51,509 bases of DNA from Verrucomicrobiota bacterium (GTDB taxonomy: Bacteria; Verrucomicrobiota; Verrucomicrobiia; Limisphaerales; Palsa-1400), in contig JBEKYR010000040.1 in NCBI GenBank assembly GCA_049510745.1, positions 1-51,509 of the forward strand, written 5' to 3'. A program made the position numbers and the translations under genes. Under the pieces are notes generated by a model that saw only the letters and a list, made by a program, of their open reading frames with translations, was not told the DNA's origin and made no database searches. How positions within the stretch are numbered: the stretch's first letter is position 1; every line of letters starts with the position of its first letter. Below, piece by piece: positions 3,865-48,141 of this stretch.

Positions 3865-4095
3865 GTGCTTCTGAAATACGCCGAGCGAATCACGTTTGAC
3901 CCGGAACAATGTGGCGGACGGCCCTGCATTCGCCACTACCGCATCCGGGTGAAGGATGTGCTGGACATGCTGGCGGCGGGCGTGCCGGAGTCTGAAATCC
4001 TGAAGGATTATGACTTCCTGCAACCCGAGGACATTCGCGCCTGTCTGGAATTTGCCGCCGAACAGGTCAATTATCCCGTGTTGGTGAGCGCCTGA
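3865..4095 (+). CDS. DUF433-domain antitoxin-like protein
   Basis: ITFDPEQCGGRPCIRHYRIRV...LKDYDFLQPEDIRACLEFA signature. Confidence 0.9.
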   Translation: MLLKYAERITFDPEQCGGRPCIRHYRIRVKDVLDMLAAGVPESEILKDYDFLQPEDIRACLEFAAEQVNYPVLVSA

Positions 4096-17665: not shown

Positions 17666-18019
17666 ATGGAATTCACCGTAGAGTTCTACGAGACCGCGAA
17701 CGGGCGTTCGCCGGTGCGGGAGTTTCTGTTGGAACTGAAGGCCAGTGATTCCAACGACTTCGCAGCGGTGGCGTCCGGGTTGGAGAAACTGCGCCATCGC
17801 CAGTGTCACCGCGAGCCGCTGACCAAGGCGCTCAACGACGGCCTCTTTGAGTTGCGCCATGTCGGCAAGTTGAATACCCGGGTGCTGTGGTTCTTTATGA
17901 AAGGCCGGCGCATTATCGCCGTCCACGGCATCCGCAACAAAGGCCAGGCCATCCCGCCTGGCGACCTGGACACCGCGCGTGAGCGAATGCGCGACTGGAA
18001 GGAAAGAAATGAGCTATGA
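17666..18019 (+). CDS. RelE/HigB (Gp49-like) toxin
   Basis: VEFYETANGRSPVREFL, GLFELR, RVLWFF, HGIRNKGQAIP. Confidence 0.9.
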   Translation: MEFTVEFYETANGRSPVREFLLELKASDSNDFAAVASGLEKLRHRQCHREPLTKALNDGLFELRHVGKLNTRVLWFFMKGRRIIAVHGIRNKGQAIPPGDLDTARERMRDWKERNEL

Positions 18020-22430: not shown

Positions 22431-22733
22431 TCAAGGGGGCAGAGTCGGCTCGCCTCGCGCGCCATGCCAAACGGTGAGGATTTCCGCTGTTTTGGACGAT
22501 TCGTTGACGCGATAGAAGATTCGATAGTTCCCGCAAACAATCTCCCGCGTCCGGCCCGAGGCTCCGCGGGGATAAGTGGGGCCAATATAGGGAAATGAAG
22601 ACAAAATCTCAACGTGCTCGACGATGCTCGCGCCTATTCGAGCGCCTGCGGGAGGATTGTCGCGGCTGATGTAGGTGACAATTTCCTCCAAGTCGCCCAG
22701 CGCTGGTTCTGTCCAGACTATTTTGACTTCCAT
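22431..22733 (-). CDS. ParE/RelE-family toxin
   Basis: IVWTEPALGDLEEIVTYI, YRIFYRV, VWHGAR. Confidence 0.9.
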   Translation of the reverse strand: MEVKIVWTEPALGDLEEIVTYISRDNPPAGARIGASIVEHVEILSSFPYIGPTYPRGASGRTREIVCGNYRIFYRVNESSKTAEILTVWHGARGEPTLPP

Positions 22734-34875: not shown

Positions 34876-35787
34876 ATGCGAAAACTGTCCAGAGCCTTGA
34901 TTTCCCTCTGTTTGGCCGCCGCTTTGCCCGGCTGCGACCGGCAACCCGCCTCTGTGTCCGCCCGGAAACCGTCTCCGCCAGATTCGCAAATCTTTGTGGT
35001 CAAAGGGGTTGTAAAAGAACTGGAGCCGGACGGCAGAACAGCCGTCATCCAGCATGAGGCCATCCCCAATTACATGCCGGCCATGACGATGCCCTTCGAG
35101 GTCAAGGACACCAACCTCCTGCGCGGGGTCCAGGTGGGCGATGCCATCACATTTCACCTGGTTGTCACACCCAAGGCGGGCTGGATCGAGAGCCTCACCC
35201 GCCTCCCCTCGAACGCGCCGGACACCGTCGCGCCGCCGGGTTTACACTTCTCGCGCGCGTTGCCGCCGCTGGACGAAGGGGACTTGCTGCCGGAATATCA
35301 TTTCACCAACGAACTGGGCCAGGCCGTCAGCCTGAGCCAATTCAAGGGCCGCGTGCTGGTTTTCACGTTTTTCTTCACAAGCTGCCCTTACCCGGATTTT
35401 TGCCCGCGCATGACGGGCAACTTCGCCGAGGCCGCAAAAGAATTGGAGGCCATGAGCAACGCCCCGGCCCCGTGGCAACTGCTCTCCATTTCCTTCGATC
35501 CCGCCCACGATTCGCCCTCGCGCCTGGCGGCTTACGCCTTGGCGGCGCATTATGACCCGCGCCATTGGAGTTTTCTCACCGGCGATGAGGGCCAGATCGA
35601 GGGACTGGCCGATCAAATCGGGGAACAATACTGGCGCGAAGGGGCCGGCCTCGCCCACAACCTGCGCACCGTGGTGGTCGATCCGCGCGGCCGCATCCGC
35701 AAAATCTTCGTCGGCAACAAATGGACCGTCGCGGAGTTGATCGGGGAAATGGCGCAGGCGAAGAAGAGAATCAGTGAGTCAAGATGA
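34876..35787 (+). CDS. SCO-family protein with N-terminal CusF-like copper-binding domain
   Basis: Lipobox LPGC; IQHEAIPNYMPAMTMPF; FTSCPYPDFCP; conserved His (AHNLRT). Confidence 0.9.
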   Translation: MRKLSRALISLCLAAALPGCDRQPASVSARKPSPPDSQIFVVKGVVKELEPDGRTAVIQHEAIPNYMPAMTMPFEVKDTNLLRGVQVGDAITFHLVVTPKAGWIESLTRLPSNAPDTVAPPGLHFSRALPPLDEGDLLPEYHFTNELGQAVSLSQFKGRVLVFTFFFTSCPYPDFCPRMTGNFAEAAKELEAMSNAPAPWQLLSISFDPAHDSPSRLAAYALAAHYDPRHWSFLTGDEGQIEGLADQIGEQYWREGAGLAHNLRTVVVDPRGRIRKIFVGNKWTVAELIGEMAQAKKRISESR

Positions 35788-37835
35788 AGGCAGGAACCCC
35801 GGATTCGCCGCCCTTGGCCATCGTCATGGCGCTCTTGCTCATCGCCACCGTGGTGGCCTACCAGCCGGCCTGGAATGGCAAACCAATCTGGGACGATGCG
35901 GCGCATCTGACCTATCCGGAACTTCGTTCGCTGACCGGGCTGGTCCGCATCTGGACCGAACCGGGCGTGACGCAACAGTACTATCCGGTGGCTTTCAGCG
36001 TGTTTTGGGTGGAACACAAACTCTGGGGCGATGCGACCCTGGGTTATCATCTGGTCAATATCCTGCTCCACGTCACGGCGGCGTTGTTGTTGCTGAAAAT
36101 CCTGCAGACGCTGCAAGTTCCGGCCGCCGGGCTGGCGGCGGCCATCTTCGCCTTGCACCCGGTTGAGGTCGAAACGGTGGCGTGGATTTCCGAACTCAAG
36201 AACACGCTCTCGGCGGTCTGTTATTTCGGATCGGCCCTGGCCTGGCTGCGGTTTGATCGGACCCGGAACAAGGCGGCGTATGCGGTTGCCTTGGTGCTTT
36301 TCGTGCTGGGCTTGATGGCGAAGACGGTCATTGCGAGCCTGCCGGCGGCGTTGCTGGTCGTTTTCTGGTGGCGACGGGGGAAATTGTCCTGGAAACAAGA
36401 CGTGCTGCCGTTGACGCCCTTCTTCGCCGCGGGAATCACGGCGGGGCTTTTCACCTCGTGGATGGAACGGCAGTTCGTCGGCGCCCATGGGGCGGTGTTC
36501 AATTATTCCATCGTCGAGCGCTTTCTCATTGCGGGCCGCGCCATCTGGTTTTACCTGGGCAAGCTATTCTGGCCGACGGATTTGATCTTTTCCTACCCGC
36601 GCTGGAAGATCAGCCAGACAGCAGGGTGGCAATACGTGTTTCCGGCGGCGGCGGCGGCGCTGCTCGGCGCGATGTGGGGACTGAGGCGACGGGCGCGCGG
36701 GCCTCTGGCGGCGCTGCTTTTCTTTATCGGAACCCTCTTCCCGGCCCTGGGCTTTTTCAATGTGTTTCCATTCAAATACTCGTTCGTGGCGGATCATTTT
36801 CAGTATCTCGCCAGCGTCGGCCCGATCGTGGCGGCCAGCGTTGGCCTCCACACCCTCTTCGGTGGGATGAGAGAGCGGAGGCTGGTTTGGGAAAGGGCCT
36901 TTTGCGCGATCTTGCTGGCGGCTCTTGGCCTGTTGACTTGGCGGCAAAGCCGGATGTACGGCGACATAGAGACACTCTGGCGGACAACGATTGAGCGGAA
37001 TCCCGAGAGTTGGTTCGCCCAAAATGACCTTGGCGCTGTTCTTTATGAAAAAGGGCAGGTGGACCAGGCCATCGTTCGATTCCGGGCCTCGCTGGCGATC
37101 CAGCCTGACGACAACGCCGAAGCGGAGAACAATCTGGGCGCTGCTCTGGAAAAAAAGGGACAAGTCAACGAGGCCATCATCCGGTTCCGAAAGGCGGTGG
37201 CCAGCCGGCCGCACTTTGCCGAAGCCCATCGTAATCTTGGCAACTGCCTTCTTCGACAAGGGCAGGTGGACGAGGCCCTCTTTCATTTCCGGGCGGCGGT
37301 GGCCATCCGGCCTGACTCACCCCAACTTCACTCCACCCTGGCCAACGTCCTTCTTCAATATGGGCGGGTGGACGAGGCGATCATTCAGTATCAAGAGGCG
37401 CTGGAACTTCATCCCGACGATGACCAGGCTCATTACAATCTGGGCATCGCTCTGCGCCAAAGAGGACAAAGCGACGAGGCCATTCTTCAATTCCAAAAGG
37501 CGGTCGCCATCCGGCCTGACTTTGCCGAAGCCCAAAACAATCTCGGCCACTGTCTCCTCCAGAAAGGGCGCCTGGATGAAGCGGTCACGCATTTGCGGAA
37601 GGCGCTGGAAATTCATCCTGACTATGCCCAGGCTCACTACAATCTGGGCAACGCCCTGCTGCAAAAAGGGCAGTTGGACGAAGCCCTGATTGAGTTCCAA
37701 AAACTGCTGGCAATCGAGCCTGAGTCTGCCGAAGCCCAAAGAAGCCTGGCCGACATCACCCGGCGCCTGGCCACTTCGCCCCCGCGCCGCGAAGGAAACA
37801 ACTCGATCTCCGCGCCCCCCGCGCGCGGGCGTTGA
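35784..37835 (+). CDS. TMTC-like membrane glycosyltransferase with TPR repeats
   Basis: WDD, YYPV, YHLVNILLH, FALHPVEVETVAW, ADHFQYL; several C-terminal TPRs (AHYNLG). Confidence 0.85.
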   Translation: MKAGTPDSPPLAIVMALLLIATVVAYQPAWNGKPIWDDAAHLTYPELRSLTGLVRIWTEPGVTQQYYPVAFSVFWVEHKLWGDATLGYHLVNILLHVTAALLLLKILQTLQVPAAGLAAAIFALHPVEVETVAWISELKNTLSAVCYFGSALAWLRFDRTRNKAAYAVALVLFVLGLMAKTVIASLPAALLVVFWWRRGKLSWKQDVLPLTPFFAAGITAGLFTSWMERQFVGAHGAVFNYSIVERFLIAGRAIWFYLGKLFWPTDLIFSYPRWKISQTAGWQYVFPAAAAALLGAMWGLRRRARGPLAALLFFIGTLFPALGFFNVFPFKYSFVADHFQYLASVGPIVAASVGLHTLFGGMRERRLVWERAFCAILLAALGLLTWRQSRMYGDIETLWRTTIERNPESWFAQNDLGAVLYEKGQVDQAIVRFRASLAIQPDDNAEAENNLGAALEKKGQVNEAIIRFRKAVASRPHFAEAHRNLGNCLLRQGQVDEALFHFRAAVAIRPDSPQLHSTLANVLLQYGRVDEAIIQYQEALELHPDDDQAHYNLGIALRQRGQSDEAILQFQKAVAIRPDFAEAQNNLGHCLLQKGRLDEAVTHLRKALEIHPDYAQAHYNLGNALLQKGQLDEALIEFQKLLAIEPESAEAQRSLADITRRLATSPPRREGNNSISAPPARGR

Positions 37836-37886
37836 CGCCTGGCGCGACTGGATCAGGTTGGAAGCGGACTGGATTTGTCCGATGTG
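37826..37886 (+). repeat. Degenerate upstream copy of the suf promoter/operator (direct repeat 1)
   Basis: 47/61 ungapped identity to 39163-39223, counted by eye. Confidence 0.85.
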
Positions 37887-37933
37887 CGCAACCGTAAACA
37901 GGGGCGGCGGGGTGGTGGGCGAGGTTTACAAGG

Positions 37934-37962
37934 TTGACAATTTGCCGAACCCGCGCCAAACT
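37934..37962 (+). promoter_or_regulatory. sigma70 promoter, leaderless, for the Xre-RES TA pair
   Basis: TTGACA-17-CAAACT-6 nt-ATG. Confidence 0.7.
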
Positions 37963-37968
37963 TCCATC

Positions 37969-38550
37969 ATGATGCAAACACTGCTTGAGAAACGAGGGGG
38001 CAAAGCGAGGCTGCCGTCAAACCAACAAGCCTTGGTGGATGAATTCGCCGGCGTGATCCGTAAACACCGGGATCAAGACCCAACGACTCTCGCGCGGCTG
38101 CTCAACGTCGCTTTCGACCTTTCCCTCGGGGCGAGAGAATCGCTCGAGGCCAAACTGGCACGGGCGGTCGTGCGCGGGCTGGAAGCCCGGCAACAACTGG
38201 CGGAGGCAGAAGGCGGCAGCCTGTCCTCGGAGGAGGCGGCCCGGCTGCTGCAGATTTCCAAGACCGCCGTGTTGAAGCGGCTGGAGGCCGGCCGGCTGCT
38301 GGCGTGGCGGGAGGAACGGCTGCGAGCGGCGCGGTTTCCGTGCTGGCAATTCGATCAGCATGGCCAGGTGCTGGCCGGCCTGGAGGAAGTGCTGGCCATT
38401 CTTAACCAGGACGAACGCCTCGACGCCTGGGGAAAGATACTCTTCTTCTTGCAAGAGAAGAGCAGTCTGGGTGGCCGGCGGAGCCTGGACTTGCTGCGCG
38501 CCGGAAGACTCAAGGAGGTCAGCCGGGCTGCCCACGCGTATGCCGAGTAA
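37969..38550 (+). CDS. Antitoxin partner of the RES toxin (HTH plus Xre/MbcA-like C-terminus)
   Basis: LSSEEAARLLQISKTAV HTH, FPCWQF, LGGRRSLDLLRAG; overlaps the RES start. Confidence 0.8.
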   Translation: MMQTLLEKRGGKARLPSNQQALVDEFAGVIRKHRDQDPTTLARLLNVAFDLSLGARESLEAKLARAVVRGLEARQQLAEAEGGSLSSEEAARLLQISKTAVLKRLEAGRLLAWREERLRAARFPCWQFDQHGQVLAGLEEVLAILNQDERLDAWGKILFFLQEKSSLGGRRSLDLLRAGRLKEVSRAAHAYAE

Positions 38551-39151
38551 TCCCAAGCCGGCGCGCGCCCAATTAAAACCCGGTGCGGATTTCGATCAAC
38601 GGGTGATTCCCGTCACCCGTCAACCGCAGCGCATTTGGTTCCGGGTGCATAGGTCGGGGTCGCCGGCGGTCCTCTTTGGAAAATTCTCGCACCACCGCTT
38701 TTCCCATCCCAACTGTCCCTTCCCGCTGCTTTACGTCGGGGCGACCATCCAGACGTGCCTCTGGGAAGTCTTCGGGGACGACATTTTTCAGGGGCAACGC
38801 GCTCTCTCTTCCGGAAAGTGGGCTGGATGTTGCGTCAGCCAAATCGTCGTCCCGGAACTAAAAGTGTGCGCGGTCAGCCTTGATCGAACCCGGGACGCCA
38901 TGAGTGTGGATAAAGCCAGCCTCTTGGCGGCAGACCTGAGCATTCCGCAGGCCTGGGGCCTGGCGGTGCAAGGACACCCGGCAGGTTTTGAGGCGATCAA
39001 ATATGCGAGCCGGTTCCTGGACCAGCCCTGCCTGGCCCTGTTCGAGCGCGGAGGACTGCAACCCAAACTCCGGGTGAAGGCACTGGGGGCGTTGACTCGC
39101 CTCGACGCGGCCGCGGACTGGCTCGATGAGCGAAGGGCGGCGCTGGTTTGA
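38540..39151 (+). CDS. RES-domain toxin (NAD+ phosphorylase/ART-like)
   Basis: R (WFRVH, HRF), E (LYVG...CLWE), S (IKYASR), CLALFER. Confidence 0.85.
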   Translation: MPSNPKPARAQLKPGADFDQRVIPVTRQPQRIWFRVHRSGSPAVLFGKFSHHRFSHPNCPFPLLYVGATIQTCLWEVFGDDIFQGQRALSSGKWAGCCVSQIVVPELKVCAVSLDRTRDAMSVDKASLLAADLSIPQAWGLAVQGHPAGFEAIKYASRFLDQPCLALFERGGLQPKLRVKALGALTRLDAAADWLDERRAALV

Positions 39152-39162
39152 AGTTGATTGGA

Positions 39163-39220
39163 CGGGCGTTGACATCCCGCGGAGGTGGATTATGCTGGAA
39201 GCGGACTAAATTTGTCCGAT

Positions 39221-39223
<3 letters not shown>
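39163..39223 (+). promoter_or_regulatory. suf operon promoter with palindromic operator (direct repeat 2)
   Basis: TTGACA-16-TATGCT, then CGGAC-TAAATTT-GTCCG, then the sufB ATG. Confidence 0.8.
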
Positions 39224-40666
<1,443 letters not shown>

Positions 40667-40697
40667 GGCCGCCGCCCCGGACAACCAAAAGGAATAC

Positions 40698-41474
40698 GTG
40701 ACAACCCACATGCTTGATATTTGCAATTTATCCGCCGGCGTGGACGGCAAGGAAATCCTCAAGGGACTGAGCCTGTCCATCAAGGCCGGCGAGGTCCACG
40801 CCCTGATGGGGCCGAACGGCAGCGGCAAAAGCACCCTCGCCGGCGTGCTGGCCGGGCGCAGCGACTACCAAGTCACCGGCGGCGGCGTGACCTTCAACGG
40901 CGCCGACCTGCTGGAAATGAAACCCGAGGAGCGCGCGCGGGCGGGGGTCTTTCTGGCCTTCCAATACCCGGTCGAAATCCCCGGCGTCAACAGCACCTAT
41001 TTTCTCAAGGCGGCGCTCAACGAATGCCGCAAGGCGCGCCAGGAGGAGGAATTGGACGCCGTCGAGTTCCTGGCGCTCGTCAAGAACAAGACCAAGTTGC
41101 TCGAGCTGGACCCGGCCCTGCTCAACCGCCCGGTCAACGAGGGCTTTTCCGGCGGCGAAAAGAAACGCAACGAGATTTTCCAGATGGCCGTCCTCGAACC
41201 CAAGCTCGCCATCCTCGATGAAACCGATTCCGGCCTGGACATCGACGCGTTGCGGGTGGTCGCCGGCGGCGTCAACAAATTGCGCCGCCCCGACAACGCC
41301 ACGCTGGTCATCACCCATTATCAGCGGTTGTTGAATTATATCGTGCCGGACTACGTCCACGTGCTGGTCAACGGCCGCATCGTCAAGTCCGGCGGCAAGG
41401 AACTGGCCCTGGAATTGGAGAAACGCGGCTACGATTGGCTTCTCGAAGGCGCGGCCTCGAATGGGAAGGCGTGA
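40698..41474 (+). CDS. sufC: Fe-S cluster assembly ATPase SufC
   Basis: GPNGSGKST, FQYPVEIPG, FSGGEKKRNE, LDETDSGLDID; GTG start after AAGGA. Confidence 0.97.
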   Translation: MTTHMLDICNLSAGVDGKEILKGLSLSIKAGEVHALMGPNGSGKSTLAGVLAGRSDYQVTGGGVTFNGADLLEMKPEERARAGVFLAFQYPVEIPGVNSTYFLKAALNECRKARQEEELDAVEFLALVKNKTKLLELDPALLNRPVNEGFSGGEKKRNEIFQMAVLEPKLAILDETDSGLDIDALRVVAGGVNKLRRPDNATLVITHYQRLLNYIVPDYVHVLVNGRIVKSGGKELALELEKRGYDWLLEGAASNGKA

Positions 41475-42820
41475 TGCAAACATTTAAAGACATGCCGGCC
41501 CAATCGCCCGCCGCCGTTGATGCGCTGGCCGCGGCGCTGGGCGATTTTGCGTCCGTGCAACCGGGCGCCAATCCCCCGTGGCTGAAGTCCATTCGTGAAG
41601 CGGCGCGGACGGGCCTGGGCAGAATTGGCTTTCCCAATACGCGGCAGGAAGAGTGGCGCTTCACCAGCATGGCGCCGCTGTTGCAGTTGCCCTTGCACCC
41701 CGCCGCGCCCAACGGGCGTCACGTCACCGCGCGGGATATTGCGCCGTTTCGGCTGGAAGGGATGGGTCACTGCCTGGTGTTTGTCGATGGCTGGTTTCGC
41801 GAGGATTTGTCCGCGCTGCCGGGCCGGGCCGGCGCGGTGCAAATGGGCGGTTTGCGGGCGCAACTGGCCGGCAACCCGCGCGAATTGGAACAGGACCTGG
41901 CCCGCCACGCCGGTTGCGGCGAGAATTTTTTCACCGCGCTCAACACCGCGTTCTTCCAGGATGGCGCTTTCATTTCGGCGCCGGCCGGCGCGACGGTGGA
42001 GGAGCCGGTGCAATTGCTTTTCCTCGCCGCCTCGGAGCGGCCCGGAGCGACCGTGCATTCGCGCGCGCTGATTCTGGCGGGGAAGGGCAGCGGCCTCAAG
42101 ATCGTCGAATCCTATGCCAGCCTGACTGACACCCCGCACCTGACCAACGCCGTGACGGAGTTGGTGCTCGGGGCGGAGGCGCGGGTGGAACATTGCCGGC
42201 TGCAAAACGAAAACGGGCGGGCGTTTCACGTTTCGACCGTCCAGGCCGTGCAGGGCAGGGGCAGCCATTGGATTTCCCATTCCATTGCCACCGGGGCGCG
42301 CCTCGCCCGCAATCAAGTCCAGACCTTGCTCGACGCCGAAGGCGCGGAAGCCGTCCTCAACGGCCTCTATTTGGGGCGGGACGAGCAGTTGATCGATCAC
42401 CACACGGTGGTGGACCACGCCAAGCCGCATTGCGAAAGCCACGAGTTCTTCCACGGCATCCTGACCGACCGCTCGCACGGCGTCTTCAACGGGAAAATTT
42501 TCGTCCGGCAGGACGCGCAAAAGACCAACGCCAAACAAACCAATCGGAACCTGGTGTTGTCCGACAACGCCACCATCGACACCAAACCGCAGTTGGAGAT
42601 TTTCGCCGACGACGTCAAATGCACGCATGGGGCGACCATCGGGCAATTGAACGACGAGGCGCTGTTTTATCTTCGTTCGCGCGGCATCGGGGCGGCCCAG
42701 GCGCGCCGGATGCTCATCCGGGCGTTCGCCAATGACGTGGTCGAGCGCATTACGATCGCCCCGGCGCGGGAACAATTGGACCAGCTTCTGGCCGGGCGGT
42801 TTGAAAGCGCGGCTATCTGA
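41474..42820 (+). CDS. sufD: Fe-S cluster assembly protein SufD
   Basis: EEWRFT, FNGKIFV, KPQLEIFADDVKCTHGAT, FYLRSRGI. Confidence 0.96.
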   Translation: MQTFKDMPAQSPAAVDALAAALGDFASVQPGANPPWLKSIREAARTGLGRIGFPNTRQEEWRFTSMAPLLQLPLHPAAPNGRHVTARDIAPFRLEGMGHCLVFVDGWFREDLSALPGRAGAVQMGGLRAQLAGNPRELEQDLARHAGCGENFFTALNTAFFQDGAFISAPAGATVEEPVQLLFLAASERPGATVHSRALILAGKGSGLKIVESYASLTDTPHLTNAVTELVLGAEARVEHCRLQNENGRAFHVSTVQAVQGRGSHWISHSIATGARLARNQVQTLLDAEGAEAVLNGLYLGRDEQLIDHHTVVDHAKPHCESHEFFHGILTDRSHGVFNGKIFVRQDAQKTNAKQTNRNLVLSDNATIDTKPQLEIFADDVKCTHGATIGQLNDEALFYLRSRGIGAAQARRMLIRAFANDVVERITIAPAREQLDQLLAGRFESAAI

Positions 42821-42835
42821 CGGAGGCGCCCGCCC

Positions 42836-43288
42836 ATGGCCGACGACTTGAACGAACTTTATCAGCAGGTGATTCTCGATCACTGCCGCAAGCCGCGCAA
42901 TTTTCGCGTTCTTGCGGGGGACCATCGCGCGGCCGAGGGCCGGAACCCGCTCTGCGGCGACCGTTTCACCATTTATCTCCAGCTCGAAGGCGAGGTCATC
43001 CGGGACATCAGCTTCCAGGGGTCGGGCTGCTGCATTTCCAAGGCTTCCGCCTCGATGATGACCGGCCAGCTCAAGGGCAAAACCGCCGCCGAGGCCCGCC
43101 ATTGCTTCAGTCAATTCCAAACCCTGGTCACCACCGGGAAAATGGACGAGGAGGCGATGGGGAAGCTGTGCGCCTTTGCCGGAGTTCACCACTTTCCCAT
43201 GCGCGTCAAATGCGCCATCCTGCCCTGGCACGCCATGCTGGCCGCGCTGAAAGGCGAAACCATCGTGACCACCGAAGAGAAGCCATGA
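42836..43288 (+). CDS. sufU: SUF system NifU-family protein SufU
   Basis: LYQQVILDH, NPLCGD, GSGCCIS, RVKCAILPW. Confidence 0.93.
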   Translation: MADDLNELYQQVILDHCRKPRNFRVLAGDHRAAEGRNPLCGDRFTIYLQLEGEVIRDISFQGSGCCISKASASMMTGQLKGKTAAEARHCFSQFQTLVTTGKMDEEAMGKLCAFAGVHHFPMRVKCAILPWHAMLAALKGETIVTTEEKP

Positions 43289-43833
43289 GCAGCGAGATCA
43301 TATTAAAGCGCGATTGCGAAGCGGTGCTCATTCCCGCCGGAACCAAAATCACGCTCCAAGCCGGCGAGCCGGTGGTCATCACCCAGGCGCTGGGCGGGAG
43401 CTTCACCGTCCTCATTCATGGCAACATGGCCCGCATCGAGGCGCGCGACGCCGATGCCCTGGGCCAGGACCCGCCCGCCGCGCCGCCCGCTGAAAGCGTC
43501 GCGGCGCCGGACACCGCGGTGGTGGGCGAGGAGCAGGTCATGGAACAATTGCGCACCTGCTACGATCCGGAGATCCCGGTCAACATTGTCGATTTGGGCC
43601 TCATTTATGATCTGCAAATCCAGCCGTTGCCCGCCGGCGGCTCGCGCGTCGAAATCAAAATGACCCTGACCGCCCCCGGCTGCGGCATGGGGCCGGTCTT
43701 GCAGCAGGACGTCGAATCGAAAGTTTCCAGCATTCCGGGGGTGAAAGAGGCGGCCGTGTTCCTGGTTTGGGACCCGCCCTGGAGCCGCGAGATGCTGACG
43801 GACGCCGCCCGGCTGGAACTGGGGATGATGTGA
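43285..43833 (+). CDS. sufT: Fe-S cluster assembly protein SufT (DUF59)
   Basis: TQALGGSFT, CYDPEIPVNIVDLGLIY, TLTAPGCGMG, WDPPW. Confidence 0.93.
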   Translation: MSSEIILKRDCEAVLIPAGTKITLQAGEPVVITQALGGSFTVLIHGNMARIEARDADALGQDPPAAPPAESVAAPDTAVVGEEQVMEQLRTCYDPEIPVNIVDLGLIYDLQIQPLPAGGSRVEIKMTLTAPGCGMGPVLQQDVESKVSSIPGVKEAAVFLVWDPPWSREMLTDAARLELGMM

Positions 43834-45065
43834 GCCGCCCACCACCAGATTGGGCGGCGCTGCGGGCGGACTTTCCCATCCTGGAACAACAGGTTCACGG
43901 GTTCCCCCTCGTTTATCTTGACAACGCCGCCACCTCGCAAAAGCCGCGCGCCGTCCTCGAGGCGATGGATCAGTTTTACCGCCGCGACAACAGCAACGTG
44001 CATCGGGGCATCCACGAATTGAGCCGCCGCGCCACCGTGGCCTTCGAGGCCGCCCGCGACCGCGTCGCGCGCTTCCTCAATGCCCGCGAGTCCGCCGAAA
44101 TCATCTTCACCCGCGGAACCACCGAAGCGATCAACCTCGTCGCCTACGCCTGGGGCGCCAAAAACATCAAGGCCGGCGACACGATTTTGCTCACGGAGAT
44201 GGAGCATCACAGCAACATCGTGCCGTGGCAGTTGCTGGCCGGGCGCACGGGCGCCAAGCTGGCCTACGCGCCGATTTCGGGCGACGACGGGCTGCTGGAT
44301 TTGAGCGGGCTGGACCGGTTGTTTGACAACACGGTCAAGCTGTTCGCGTTCACCCATGTTTCCAACACGCTCGGGACGGTCAATCCCGTTGCCGAGTTGT
44401 GCGCCCGCGCCCGCCGACGCGGCATTGTCACGCTGGTCGATGCCGCGCAGAGCGCCGGCCATCGGCCGGTCGATGTCCAGGAGATCGGCTGCGATTTTCT
44501 GGCCTTCTCCGGGCACAAGCTGTGCGGGCCGACCGGCAGCGGCGCGCTTTACGGGCGGCGCGAACTCCTCGAGGACATGCCTCCCTTCCAGGGGGGCGGC
44601 GACATGATTTCGAGCGTCGATTTCTTCCATAGCACATGGAAGGAGCCGCCGCACAAATTCGAGGCGGGCACGCCCGATTTCGCCGCCGCCATCGGCCTGC
44701 GCGCCGCGCTGGATTACGTCGATGCCATCGGTTGCGAGAACATCGCCCGGCATGACGAGGAGTTGGCAGCGCGCGCACTGGAGAAACTTGCGCGCCTGCC
44801 GGGCCTCCGGCTTTTCGGCCCGCGCCAGGGGCACGCCGGCGTGGTCAGTTTTCTTTTGCGGGACATTCATGCCCACGATGTCGTGACGGTGGCCGATCAG
44901 CGCGGCGTCGCCTTGCGCGGGGGCCACCACTGCAACCAGCCGTTGATGAAACGGCTGGGGGTGGAATCGACCGCCCGCGCCAGTTTTTATTTTTACAACA
45001 CCGCCGCGGAAGTGGACCGGCTGGCGGAAGTGCTGGTGGAAATTCAAAAATTCTTTGGCGCATGA
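43830..45065 (+). CDS. sufS: Cysteine desulfurase SufS
   Basis: YLDNAATSQKP, EHHSN, SGHK (PLP Lys), RGGHHC. Confidence 0.96.
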   Translation: MSRPPPDWAALRADFPILEQQVHGFPLVYLDNAATSQKPRAVLEAMDQFYRRDNSNVHRGIHELSRRATVAFEAARDRVARFLNARESAEIIFTRGTTEAINLVAYAWGAKNIKAGDTILLTEMEHHSNIVPWQLLAGRTGAKLAYAPISGDDGLLDLSGLDRLFDNTVKLFAFTHVSNTLGTVNPVAELCARARRRGIVTLVDAAQSAGHRPVDVQEIGCDFLAFSGHKLCGPTGSGALYGRRELLEDMPPFQGGGDMISSVDFFHSTWKEPPHKFEAGTPDFAAAIGLRAALDYVDAIGCENIARHDEELAARALEKLARLPGLRLFGPRQGHAGVVSFLLRDIHAHDVVTVADQRGVALRGGHHCNQPLMKRLGVESTARASFYFYNTAAEVDRLAEVLVEIQKFFGA

Positions 45066-45607
45066 CAAATCTCCTCCAACCGTCGGCCACGATGAAACGC
45101 GTGCTGGAAGTTTTTCCCGGCGCCCAACGCGCGTTGTTTCGCCGCTATCACATTGGCGGCTGCGCCAGTTGCGCCTTTCAGCCGGACGAAACTCTCGAAG
45201 GTCTCTGCGCCCGCAACAATTTGAACGTGGCCGAAGTCCTGCAACACATCGAGACCAGCCATGAGCAGGATCAGGAATTGCTCGTTTCGCCCGCCGCGCT
45301 GGCCCAACTGCGCCAGGCCGGCGGCGTGCGCCTGGTCGATATTCGCAGCCGCGAGGAGTTCGACGCCGCCCGCATCGACGGCGCGGTCCTCTTGTCGCAG
45401 CCCGTCATGCAGGACATTCTGGGCCATTGGCCGCGCGAAGGGCTGATGGTCCTCTACGACCATCGCGGACAGCAGAGCCTCGACGCCGCCGCTTATTTCA
45501 TGGGCCAGGGATTTCGCAACGTCCGCTGTTTGCGCGGCGGCATCGACGCCTGGTCGCGCGAGGTGGACGAAAAAATCCCGCGCTACCGATTGGAGCTTTC
45601 CGCATGA
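45062..45607 (+). CDS. Rhodanese-like protein with N-terminal DUF1858/ScdA-like CxxC domain
   Basis: HIGGCASC...ETLEGLC; VDIRSREEF, LRGGIDAW; Asp at the active-site position (LYDHRG). Confidence 0.85.
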   Translation: MTNLLQPSATMKRVLEVFPGAQRALFRRYHIGGCASCAFQPDETLEGLCARNNLNVAEVLQHIETSHEQDQELLVSPAALAQLRQAGGVRLVDIRSREEFDAARIDGAVLLSQPVMQDILGHWPREGLMVLYDHRGQQSLDAAAYFMGQGFRNVRCLRGGIDAWSREVDEKIPRYRLELSA

Positions 45608-46101
45608 ACCCCGCCGACGATTTTCAAAAACGCCTCGAGCAAGCCCTGCGCGACCCGAAGAACCTGGGCGAACTGGAAGGGGCCGACGCCGTCGGCACCG
45701 CCGGCAGCGCCGCCTGCGGCGACATGATCCGGCTGTGGATCAAATTCAAGGAGCAGGCGGGCAAAAAAGTTGTTGACCGCGCCACCTTTCAAAGTTTCGG
45801 CTGCGAGACGGCGATTGCCGTCGCCAGCCTGGCCACGGAAATGATCCGGGGCAAGACGGCGGAGGAAGTGCTGGCGCTGTCCGCCTCGGAACTGGCGCCC
45901 GGCCTCGGCCCGCTGCCGCCGGTCCGGATTCACTGCACGCAACTGGTTGAAAGCGCCCTCCATTCCGCCTTGCAGCCGTCCGCCGCGCCGTCGGAACCCG
46001 CTCCCGCCGTTACGGCGCCGAGCTTGGTTGATAAATTCACCCAGGCCGGCCAGCCCCCCGGCAAGTTGAAGGTCATCCTGCTGGATGAAAAAGATAATTA
46101 G
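45604..46101 (+). CDS. IscU/NifU-type Fe-S scaffold
   Basis: PKNLG, ACGDMIRL, FGCETAIA, LPPVRIHC. Confidence 0.88.
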   Translation: MNPADDFQKRLEQALRDPKNLGELEGADAVGTAGSAACGDMIRLWIKFKEQAGKKVVDRATFQSFGCETAIAVASLATEMIRGKTAEEVLALSASELAPGLGPLPPVRIHCTQLVESALHSALQPSAAPSEPAPAVTAPSLVDKFTQAGQPPGKLKVILLDEKDN

Positions 46102-46639: not shown

Positions 46640-46909
46640 ATGAAAGCAGTGACCATCAACATTTCATTGAATCCAGAGCTGGCCGAATTCGCACGGGCCG
46701 ACTCGGAGGCGCGGGCGTTTGATTCCATGAGCGAGTATATGCGGGATTTGATCCGCCATCGCCGCCAGGAACAAATCGAGGCGGATGTGGCCTTTTTGGA
46801 AAAAGCCATCGAGGGCGCGCCGCTGGGTGATCCTTCGGATAAGGAAATGGCCGCAATCTACGCCGGCATCAAAGCCCGTCGAAAGAAAAAGCATGAAGGT
46901 CGTCTTTGA
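46640..46909 (+). CDS. Ribbon-helix-helix (ParD/CopG-like) antitoxin
   Basis: TINISLNPEL...FDSMSEYMRDLIR; leaderless TTGACA-16-TAACTT-6-ATG promoter. Confidence 0.85.
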   Translation: MKAVTINISLNPELAEFARADSEARAFDSMSEYMRDLIRHRRQEQIEADVAFLEKAIEGAPLGDPSDKEMAAIYAGIKARRKKKHEGRL

Positions 46910-47300
46910 CGCGGGGGTGGTGTTTTCAGGCGCCGGGTGGCGGGGCGAAGCGCATCGTTGTCTGCTGGCAATGGCTCATCGCCGGGTCATTGCCTATGCC
47001 ACCGAGGAAACCCTCAAGGAATTGAGCACTCTGCTTGCTGATCGCGCGGACAGGGCGAAGCACCCGGCGGCTGCCACATTGTCCTGGTATCAGGACAACG
47101 TGAAGCGCGTTGAGCCCGCGCCGCTGGGCAAACAACGGAGCCGCGATCTGAAAGATGATCCTTATTTGGCCTGCGCGTTGGGAGCCGGAGCGAAGATCAT
47201 TGTCACGCGGGATGGCGATTTGCTGGCGTTGGGAAAGCCCTTTGGAATCCAAATCATTACGCCGCGCGAGTTGCTGGTTCGATTATCAAGGCCGCTTTGA
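46893..47300 (+). CDS. PIN-family toxin
   Basis: MKVVFDAGV, RDLKDDPYLACA, IVTRDGDLL, IITPREL. Confidence 0.9.
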   Translation: MKVVFDAGVVFSGAGWRGEAHRCLLAMAHRRVIAYATEETLKELSTLLADRADRAKHPAAATLSWYQDNVKRVEPAPLGKQRSRDLKDDPYLACALGAGAKIIVTRDGDLLALGKPFGIQIITPRELLVRLSRPL

Positions 47301-47913: not shown

Positions 47914-48141
47914 TTACGCGACACCCAGGGCGGTGATCTCCGTGTGCAGAATGGAATGCCGGGCGTACTCCAAGGCAGCCTGAATATCATCCCGCGTCAA
48001 TTCCGGGTAGCCACGCAGCAAGGAATCCCAAGATTCATCGTCGGCCAGTTGTTCCAGAATTGTGGCCACAGGAATCCGTGTGCCCTTGATGACCGGCTGG
48101 CCGCCACACACACGCGGATTGATTTCAATGCGCTCGCTCAT
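47914..48141 (-). CDS. DUF433 antitoxin
   Basis: IEINPRVCGGQPVIKGTRIPV...YPELTRDDIQAALEYA; leaderless TTGCAG-17-TATGGT-6-ATG promoter. Confidence 0.92.
   Translation of the reverse strand: MSERIEINPRVCGGQPVIKGTRIPVATILEQLADDESWDSLLRGYPELTRDDIQAALEYARHSILHTEITALGVA

What the first reader, a model, noticed from the sequence alone, without database searches (positions are those of the whole stretch)
37826..39223. Xre-RES toxin-antitoxin cassette bracketed by a 61-bp duplication of the suf promoter, operator and start codon
Seen: 37826-37886 and 39163-39223 align without gaps at 47/61 positions. The downstream copy is the intact suf promoter (TTGACA-16-TATGCT, palindrome CGGAC-N7-GTCCG, sufB ATG). 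The upstream copy has decayed -35/-10 boxes (TTGACG/CAGGTT) and ATG changed to GTG, but keeps both palindrome arms perfectly. Only the antitoxin-RES pair lies between the copies, with no transposase or integrase. Inference: either the cassette inserted by a mechanism that duplicates or regenerates the host promoter, or the operator was retained so that the TA shares the Fe-S regulator's control. The second option would link NAD+-targeting toxin activity (the established activity of RES toxins such as MbcT) to Fe-S/oxidative stress. Read-through from the TA promoter could also drive suf.
Basis: partly seen in the sequence, partly recalled or inferred. Interest (0 to 1): 0.85.

Follow-up and report, generated by a model that had tools for sequence, protein, structure and literature searches.

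The report
Toxin-antitoxin insertion duplicated suf promoter
A toxin-antitoxin gene pair sits between two diverged copies of the promoter of the iron-sulfur assembly operon; unrelated toxin-antitoxin pairs in this genome sit between copies of other host sequences, so this is likely the scar of a known enzyme-free insertion route rather than a link between the toxin and iron-sulfur control.

Summary
The repeat is real: 47 of 61 positions match, against 37 for the next best site in the genome, and independent peat assemblies span it unchanged. The palindrome is likely the box of an Rrf2 regulator: it precedes sufB in 27 of 27 family loci, this genome's rrf2-cysteine desulfurase genes, and sufC in split operons. 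The shared-control idea gains little support. The cassette has its own conserved promoter (36 of 42 homologues), and no other homologous locus lies at suf. The upstream copy's four departures from family consensus all hit the -35/-10 boxes (P about 0.01, post hoc); its intact operator is within chance (P about 0.14). Other toxin-antitoxin pairs here carry the same scar: 4 of 81 toxin anchors against 2 of 642 control genes (Fisher P 0.002). One such site has an empty allele in relatives. This is 'insertion with long target duplication', published for restriction-modification genes (PMC2853133) and noted before by this scan on other DNA, including this genome. The likely route is single-crossover integration of incoming DNA carrying a short host homology. 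No strict empty site was found at suf.

The parts
35784..37835 (+). TPR-repeat membrane protein gene (TMTC-like, 683 aa); its TGA stop lies inside the -35 box of the upstream copy; its C-terminus differs from the closest homologues
37826..37886 (+). upstream (orphan) copy of the suf promoter, operator and start codon; 47 of 61 identical to the downstream copy
37832..37837 (+). altered -35 box TTGACG (family TTGACA in 22 of 23)
37854..37859 (+). altered -10 box CAGGTT (three letters seen in 0 of 23 family promoters)
37865..37881 (.). intact palindrome CGGAC-N7-GTCCG, predicted Rrf2 box; its central GG variant also occurs in functional family promoters
37882..37884 (+). ATG created by the A-to-G change, in frame with the antitoxin gene (would add 30 residues); probably incidental, homologues start at 37972
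   Evidence: read from sequence
37923..37962 (+). the TA module's own predicted promoter: 9-nt tandem repeats over TTGACA (37934-37939), 17 nt, CAAACT (37957-37962); likely autoregulatory site
   Evidence: motif in 36 of 42 distinct homologue upstream regions; homologous contigs begin to match at 37906
37972..38550 (+). predicted antitoxin, 192 aa: helical N-terminus, HTH_17/Rv2175c-like winged HTH, MbcA/ParS-like C-terminal part
38540..39151 (+). RES-domain toxin gene, 203 aa, overlapping the antitoxin stop; R35, R53, Y65, E76, S157 invariant in 17 aligned homologues
39163..39223 (+). downstream copy: intact suf promoter (TTGACA 39169-39174, TATGCT 39191-39196), operator 39202-39218, sufB ATG 39221
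39221..46101 (+). suf operon: sufB, sufC, sufD, sufU-like, sufT-like, sufS, rhodanese-domain gene, nifU-like gene

Best explanation
The two 61-bp copies are likely the scar of a recombinase-free insertion of a self-contained RES toxin-antitoxin module, which likely arrived on foreign DNA carrying a short stretch of suf promoter and integrated by one homologous crossover, leaving an upstream orphan promoter whose -35 and -10 boxes were then likely weakened. Shown: the repeat, its uniqueness, the module's tight ends (about 37906 to 39162), its own promoter, the single-copy state in relatives, and the same footprint around other TA pairs. Inferred: (1) the module moves between Verrucomicrobiota as promoter plus two genes; (2) a fragment joined to 40-170 bp of host-homologous sequence is trimmed, circularised and integrated by RecA, giving host copy - TA - host copy, with copies that may be different alleles from the start; (3) only insertions that keep one whole working copy of the host element survive, here the downstream suf promoter; (4) the upstream copy would have driven the toxin operon past its own autorepression whenever suf was induced, so promoter-down changes were likely favoured, while the operator has simply not yet decayed; (5) loss by recombination between the copies is likely slowed by their divergence and by toxin addiction. 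That it is an insertion scar at all I put at about 0.8; the stated confidence includes the single-crossover route.
For: Unique two-copy repeat. One promoter copy and no RES pair in 27 of 27 family sufB loci. Homologous modules in other contexts with their own promoter. Flank test in this genome: 4 of 81 TA anchors against 2 of 642 small control genes carry a unique, at least half non-coding repeat (5 of 81 against 5 of 642 without the non-coding filter; Fisher P 0.0018 and 0.0025); the RES locus was not among the anchors, and the two control hits are a PIN TA that the family search missed and a PD-(D/E)XK gene. Repeats copy gene ends or starts at 56/56, 107/115, 88/97, 35/36, 47/58. At the ETF-QO/flavodoxin-like junction an empty allele exists (L152, 2-nt gap); this genome's orphan differs from the intact end at 11 positions, 8 of them third-codon, and 10 of the 11 orphan letters occur in working orthologues, as expected of two alleles. 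G008 has the same TA at the same boundaries between two identical copies of its own gene end (56 of 56). A distant RES homologue in G022 sits in a 166-bp two-copy duplication of the ribF end. Precedent: in E. coli, incoming DNA with one-sided homology gave 109-950 bp duplications by circularisation and single crossover (duplication PCR product in 56 of 60 clones, 14 sequenced; PMC3240628, passages). Upstream copy: 4 departures at 30 conserved positions, all in the -35/-10 boxes (P 0.012; 0.006-0.016 across thresholds).
Against: No strict empty allele at suf: the gene upstream of the promoter differs among the relatives read, and none of 20 has the TPR gene adjacent. No donor with this TA at suf was found. 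Only 2 of 35 RES-family loci and about 5-7 percent of TA anchors show a repeat, so it is a minority footprint. Replication in relatives is modest: 6 of 52 ParE/PIN_3 loci, of which 2 are confirmed two-copy, 1 is a multicopy repeat and 3 were not tested, against 1 of 27 rrf2 control loci. The third-position excess at the ETF-QO site is P 0.009 against random decay but only 0.08 if the intact copy also kept evolving; other sites show no such excess. G008's identical copies could equally come from later gene conversion. The promoter-box statistic was chosen after seeing the data, and the two most critical -10 letters (A at 2, T at 6) are still intact. No excised or joined form was seen in 8 runs (contigs only).
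Confidence: 0.55

Rival explanations
1. Same scar, different route: the module was inserted by a replication or repair event (template switching, or widely staggered strand transfer by an unknown enzyme in trans) that copied the host's own 61 or more bases, so both copies began identical and the upstream one decayed.
For: Perfect repeats exist (56 of 56 at C4, 56 of 56 in G008). Both suf copies share letters rare in the family (A at spacer position 28 in 0 of 23 relatives; G at position 3 in 1 of 23), which points to a common origin within this lineage. Repeat lengths vary widely (36-166 bp).
Against: In the spacer the upstream copy fits the family matrix better than the working copy (6.1 against -0.4 bits), and the ETF-QO orphan carries letters of working alleles, both easier to explain with two alleles. 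No candidate enzyme or shared end sequence links the RES, PIN, ParE and DUF433 modules seen.
Confidence: 0.22
2. Regulatory capture: however it arose, the upstream operator is kept by selection, so that the Fe-S-sensing Rrf2 protein influences the RES toxin operon (as a roadblock to read-through from the TPR operon, a looping partner 1337 bp from the suf operator, or a weak inducible promoter CAGGTT).
For: 0 departures at 11 conserved operator positions; operator score 27.6 bits against a family median of 28.0. It is the second strongest site in the genome. No terminator was predicted between the TPR gene and the TA. The A-to-G change creates an ATG in frame with the antitoxin.
Against: An intact operator is expected by chance with P 0.12-0.15, and the 8 other conserved non-box positions are intact too. 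The TA keeps its own promoter and repeats 52 nt further down. None of 67 other homologue loci has the box, and the matrix scan shows no strong site beyond the three named. No such link appeared in the listing of one paper search.
Confidence: 0.13
3. The promoter was duplicated first, by a local rearrangement or an earlier insertion whose cargo was lost, and the TA landed between the copies later; the suf upstream region is simply a tolerant landing place.
For: Functional copies of this promoter exist where the operon is split (before sufB and before sufC in G005 and G018). Other TA-like genes lie just upstream of the suf promoter without a second copy (L062, L063). The TPR gene's unusual C-terminus suggests a separate rearrangement here.
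Against: The module fills the gap almost exactly: homology starts about 20 nt after the upstream copy and the RES stop is 11 nt before the downstream copy. TA pairs are enriched for this footprint genome-wide.
Confidence: 0.1

Closest known systems
Insertion with long target duplication (Furuta, Abe and Kobayashi 2010, PMC2853133; seen: passages, sections 13, 14, 15 and the Discussion; the earlier H. pylori paper it cites was not read)
   Same: Addiction-type genes, no mobility gene, under 20 kb, between two imperfect copies longer than 30 bp that occur once at the empty site; the paper notes that repeats often span a translation start or stop and leave the host gene intact, and that flanking repeats are enriched over control genes.
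   Different: Cargo is a type II toxin-antitoxin pair, not restriction-modification genes ('toxin' occurs 0 times in that main text; supplements not seen). The paper suggests DNA breakage by the RM enzymes, which RES, PIN and ParE modules cannot supply. The copied piece is a whole promoter-operator-start unit, at 77 percent identity. No strict empty allele was found for this site.
Single-crossover integration of trimmed, recircularised incoming DNA in E. coli (Amarir-Bouhram et al. 2011, PMC3240628; seen: abstract and passages)
   Same: One-sided homology gives RecA-dependent insertions with duplications of variable length (109-950 bp) and no dedicated enzyme.
   Different: A laboratory conjugation set-up with engineered plasmids; homologies here are shorter (36-166 bp); not shown in Verrucomicrobiota.
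MbcT-MbcA and related RES-Xre systems (PMC6436930; seen: passages)
   Same: RES toxin downstream of its partner; best structural match is MbcT (6fkg, E 1.4e-3, low-confidence model); invariant R35, R53, Y65, E76 have the spacing of MbcT R27, R47, Y58, E69; the partner's second structural match is MbcA.
   Different: No sequence match to any solved chain. The partner is 192 aa with an extra N-terminal helical part and an Rv2175c-like HTH (best match 2kfs, E 5.6e-5), not a canonical Xre HTH. Activity untested.
Rrf2-family control of Fe-S assembly genes (IscR, SufR-type; general picture recalled)
   Same: Palindrome over the predicted transcription start of suf and upstream of an rrf2-cysteine desulfurase pair.
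   Different: The protein passes only the Rrf2 superfamily model, not IscR (90.9 against cut-off 207.55) or the Xanthomonas suf regulator model. No paper on this box in Verrucomicrobiota was found.

Membership tests
Insertion with long target duplication (criteria of PMC2853133) | flanking direct repeat longer than 30 bp | tested here: met
   61 bp, 47 identical
Insertion with long target duplication (criteria of PMC2853133) | insert under 20 kb with no mobility gene | tested here: met
   unit length 1337 bp; only HTH and RES matches
Insertion with long target duplication (criteria of PMC2853133) | repeat is not a multicopy genomic element | tested here: met
   two copies only; next best 37 of 61
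Insertion with long target duplication (criteria of PMC2853133) | empty site in another genome, homologous on both sides, with one copy | tested here: inconclusive
   one copy and no RES pair in 27 of 27 loci, but upstream neighbours differ; met for the sister site at ETF-QO (L152)
Insertion with long target duplication (criteria of PMC2853133) | cargo contains restriction and modification genes (the paper's selection filter, not a property of the footprint) | tested here: not met
   cargo is a TA pair; filed under the insertion mode, not under RM elements
RES-Xre / MbcTA-type toxin-antitoxin system | RES domain toxin | tested here: met
   PF08808 37.7 bits, cut-off 23.2; MbcT best fold match
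RES-Xre / MbcTA-type toxin-antitoxin system | active-site Arg, Arg, Tyr, Glu, Ser as in MbcT | tested here: inconclusive
   R35, R53, Y65, E76, S157 invariant in 17 sequences with matching spacing; equivalence is by spacing, model pLDDT 61
RES-Xre / MbcTA-type toxin-antitoxin system | upstream coupled antitoxin with Xre-like HTH and MbcA/ParS C-terminal domain | tested here: inconclusive
   coupled gene present (11-nt overlap); HTH_17 in 25 of 27, Rv2175c_wHTH in 14, Xre_MbcA_ParS_C in 6, all weak; folds like Rv2175c, then MbcA; no Xre HTH model matched
RES-Xre / MbcTA-type toxin-antitoxin system | NAD+ degradation or ADP-ribosylation, neutralised by the partner | not testable with these tools
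   needs an assay
Rrf2-regulated Fe-S assembly operator | conserved palindrome at suf and at the regulator's own gene | tested here: met
   GGAC-N7-GTCC before sufB in 27 of 27 family loci, exact before rrf2 in 9 of 29 with near matches in several more, before sufC in G005 and G018
Rrf2-regulated Fe-S assembly operator | binding by the Rrf2 protein, Fe-S dependent | not testable with these tools
   needs EMSA or ChIP
Site-specific or transposase-made insertion | recombinase or transposase in the element, terminal inverted repeats or att core shared between sites | tested here: not met
   none in the insert; the repeats at different sites are unrelated host sequences

The most novel reading that the evidence does not exclude
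Long-target-duplication insertion can hand a selfish module a host regulator site: here the orphan suf promoter was silenced at its -35 and -10 boxes while its Rrf2 box was kept, so that Fe-S status now gates an NAD-attacking toxin operon. More widely, unrelated TA modules of these peat Verrucomicrobiota would cycle through host copy - TA - host copy structures, excising and re-integrating by homologous recombination alone.
Probability: 0.13. Interest if true: 0.7.

Novelty: new member of a known kind. Interest (0 to 1): 0.38.

Why it matters
How chromosomal toxin-antitoxin pairs reach new sites without a recombinase is an open question (my own knowledge, not a call). This genome gives a set of scars of graded age (77 to 100 percent identity), enriched about 16-fold around TA genes, and one site (ETF-QO end) with empty, filled, converted and differently filled alleles in relatives. 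That makes the route testable by comparison alone. It also argues that the footprint published for restriction-modification genes needs no DNA-cutting cargo. The suf case itself adds a predicted Rrf2 box for this family and an example of an orphan promoter that appears tuned down. The eye-catching claim, Fe-S control of an NAD toxin, is unsupported at present. Five paper searches listed no study of TA modules with this footprint; only listings were seen, the library lacks most subscription papers, and supplements were not read.

Tried and rejected
Exact palindrome count as evidence: rejected, 12 sites, like other spacings. All-against-all local repeats: 994 hits, mostly repeat proteins and paralogues, too noisy; replaced by flank tests. 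In one search, 8009 gene runs gave 70 hits, 35 with at most 3 copies; 5 enclose TA pairs including this one, 1 a lone putative antitoxin, 1 a PD-(D/E)XK gene, and most others are tandem paralogues. Extension of the repeat into sufB codons 5-7: a 9-letter match that 3043 of 100000 random 25-mers reach, not used. RNA structure as the reason for the kept palindrome: the 61-mers fold no better than shuffles (z -1.3 and -1.0); a 101-nt stretch round the TPR stop gives z -2.3, one of six folds, left as a lead. Excised or empty form in population data: no joint between the copies among those listed in 8 runs (contigs only, 5 joints not shown); no RNA holder listed. Promoter pattern in viral contigs: 0 matches. 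Second promoter copies near other TAs upstream of suf (L058, L062, L063): none. TPR-gene homologues as an empty site: none of the 17 read to their stop is followed by the suf promoter within about 160 nt. ComEC in 31 of 31 family genomes but also in 10 of 14 controls, so weak. Dropped rows: the C1 row was out of frame; the orphan comparison had an indexing slip and was redone; L239 dropped as multicopy; C53 (35 bp, both copies coding), C25 (tRNA 5' part, 3 copies) and C10 (score 35) were not counted in the 4 of 81. Sequence search of solved structures: no hit for either protein.
Full report
1. Observation. The two stretches align without gaps at 47 of 61 positions and the likeness stops sharply on both sides. 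In the 5,625,675-base genome the next best ungapped match to either copy is 37 of 61. Single contigs of two independent peat runs cover the whole junction with no difference. The genes are a TPR membrane protein, an HTH protein, a RES protein and a full suf operon. Titles of homologous records name Verrucomicrobiota and Limisphaerales and the holders are peat or wetland metagenomes, so the host is likely a peat verrucomicrobium; this is inferred.

2. The downstream copy is the family's suf promoter. All 27 family sufB loci fetched besides this genome's have TTGAC, a -10 box and GGAC-N7-GTCC just before the start; two more distant loci lack it. A weight matrix finds three strong sites in this genome: the two copies and C1:49620, which lies upstream of an Rrf2 gene followed by a cysteine desulfurase. 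The exact core stands before rrf2 in 9 of 29 loci, with near matches in several more. In G005 and G018 sufB and sufCDU are apart and each has its own promoter and box. The box is therefore likely the operator of an Fe-S-sensing Rrf2 repressor; binding is untested, and the protein does not pass the IscR cut-off.

3. The cassette is a self-contained module. RES homologues are many (325 proteins) and patchy in the family (12 of 31 genomes, 0 of 2 in the same genus). Of 69 loci examined (some redundant, many short), only this one and an identical metagenome contig show sufB or the box. A tandem-repeat promoter motif precedes the antitoxin in 36 of 42 distinct upstream regions. Homology begins near 37906 and ends a few bases after the RES stop, so the module fills the space between the copies almost exactly. 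The toxin's best fold match is MbcT (model pLDDT 61) and its invariant residues have MbcT's spacing. The partner folds like Rv2175c and then MbcA, so 'Xre' is a loose label.

4. Relatives carry one copy. None of the 27 loci has a RES or antitoxin match within about 1.5 kb (some contigs end sooner), and 20 longer stretches show no second operator. A pattern search of 31 genomes finds two perfect boxes close together only here. The gene upstream of the promoter differs among relatives, so there is no strict empty allele.

5. The footprint is general. A flank-against-flank scan of 8009 gene runs gave 35 low-copy repeats. They include a ParE pair (88 of 97; end of a dehydrogenase gene), two PIN pairs (56 of 56; 47 of 58) and a PIN_3 pair (35 of 36; start of the next gene). 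A uniform test on 81 anchors from eight family searches gave 4 of 81 against 2 of 642 small control genes, or 5 against 5 without the non-coding filter (Fisher P 0.0018 and 0.0025; anchors are not fully independent). It added a DUF433 pair (107 of 115). Among RES-family loci 2 of 35 have a flanking repeat: this one and a two-copy 166-bp duplication of the ribF end in G022. In relatives 6 of 52 ParE and PIN_3 loci scored: 2 two-copy, 1 multicopy, 3 untested, against 1 of 27 rrf2 loci. So the footprint is enriched here but is a minority state, and its replication in relatives is modest.

6. A sister site speaks to the route. At the ETF-QO/flavodoxin-like junction, G027 has the empty allele with a 2-nt gap; G008 and G014 have the same TA with the same 750-nt gap; G016 has another cargo in its own duplication. 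In G008 the copies are identical (56 of 56) and differ from this genome's. Here the orphan differs from the intact end at 11 positions, 8 third-codon, and 10 of the 11 orphan letters occur in working orthologues. This fits two alleles brought together by recombination (P 0.009 against random decay, but 0.08 if the intact copy kept evolving). Other sites give no clear codon bias. In E. coli, incoming DNA with one-sided homology mostly gave 109-950 bp duplications by circularisation and single crossover (PMC3240628, passages), a direct precedent.

7. Is the upstream operator kept on purpose? Of 30 positions conserved in at least 20 of 23 family promoters, the upstream copy departs at 4, all in the -35 and -10 boxes (P 0.012), and at 0 of 11 operator and 0 of 8 other positions. 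An untouched operator has P 0.12-0.15, so the signal is damage to the boxes, not protection of the operator. The likely reason is selection against a strong, stress-induced promoter above a toxin operon. The test is post hoc and the key A and T of the -10 box remain. Against a purely two-allele origin, both copies share letters rare in the family. A regulatory role stays possible (0.13).

8. Known kind. PMC2853133 (passages, sections 13-15, Discussion) defines insertion with long target duplication for restriction-modification genes and notes that repeats often span start or stop sites. This case meets the length, size, no-enzyme and copy-number criteria; the empty site is inconclusive at suf; the cargo differs. 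I found that paper, before the scan's own notes, which report the same mode elsewhere and in this genome (AI notes, used as leads only); no note matched the suf or Rrf2 words. Five searches listed no paper on TA modules with this footprint and none on this box; only listings were seen, and supplements that I did not read may bear on this. The general picture of Rrf2 control and of toxin addiction is recalled, not from a call.

9. Verdict. Observation confirmed; insertion with duplication supported; shared Fe-S control unsupported but not excluded. New member of a known kind, interest 0.38.

Noticed in passing
G000:C22:21518-22322 (L124) and L142-L160: The ETF-QO/flavodoxin-like junction is a repeated landing site: empty in G027, same PIN TA in G008, G014, G017 (partial) and G029, a different HTH cargo inside a duplication of about 120 bp in G016, other small genes in G001. 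G008's copies are identical and lineage-specific.
   Followed up: partly
G000:C4:53745-54644 (L123): PIN TA between two perfect 56-bp copies of a DUF2252 gene end; the youngest-looking scar and the best place to look for circles in raw reads.
   Followed up: partly
G000:C23:28699-29762; C1:185335-186076; C24:65538-66396; C14:94194-94690; C10:82217-82967; C25:33934-35179; C29:8967-9651: Further two- or three-copy repeats round a DUF433 pair, a ParE pair, a PIN_3 pair, a lone 78-aa gene, a second ParE locus (orphan reads like a diverged DUF58 gene start), a PIN pair (41 bp that look like a tRNA 5' end) and a PD-(D/E)XK gene.
   Followed up: partly
L120:3185-5014 (G022:C156): Besides the 166-bp ribF-end duplication, 44 bp just inside the upstream copy match the downstream peroxidase gene in inverted orientation, hinting at a more complex joining event.
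   Followed up: no
L276, L277 (G005, G018): suf operon split into sufB and sufCDU(T), each with its own copy of the promoter and operator.
   Followed up: yes
window 37810-37850: Two of the changes in the upstream copy complete a GC-rich hairpin round the TPR gene's stop codon (101-nt fold z -2.3); the 8-mer GACTGGAT occurs twice within the upstream copy.
   Followed up: partly
window 37923-37962 and homologues: The RES module's promoter carries two to three 9-nt tandem repeats over its -35 box and a start codon about 10 nt after the -10 box, suggesting a nearly leaderless transcript and head-to-tail binding by the Rv2175c-like antitoxin.
   Followed up: partly
window 3889-4056, 17723-17989, 22455-22721, 46640-47300, 47962-48129: The window holds at least five more TA-related genes (two DUF433, Gp49-like, ParE, PIN_3 with a ParD-like partner); eight family searches gave 81 anchors genome-wide.
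   Followed up: no
L062, L063, L058: Other TA-like genes (AbrB/MazE-PIN in two genomes) lie directly upstream of the suf promoter with no duplication.
   Followed up: partly
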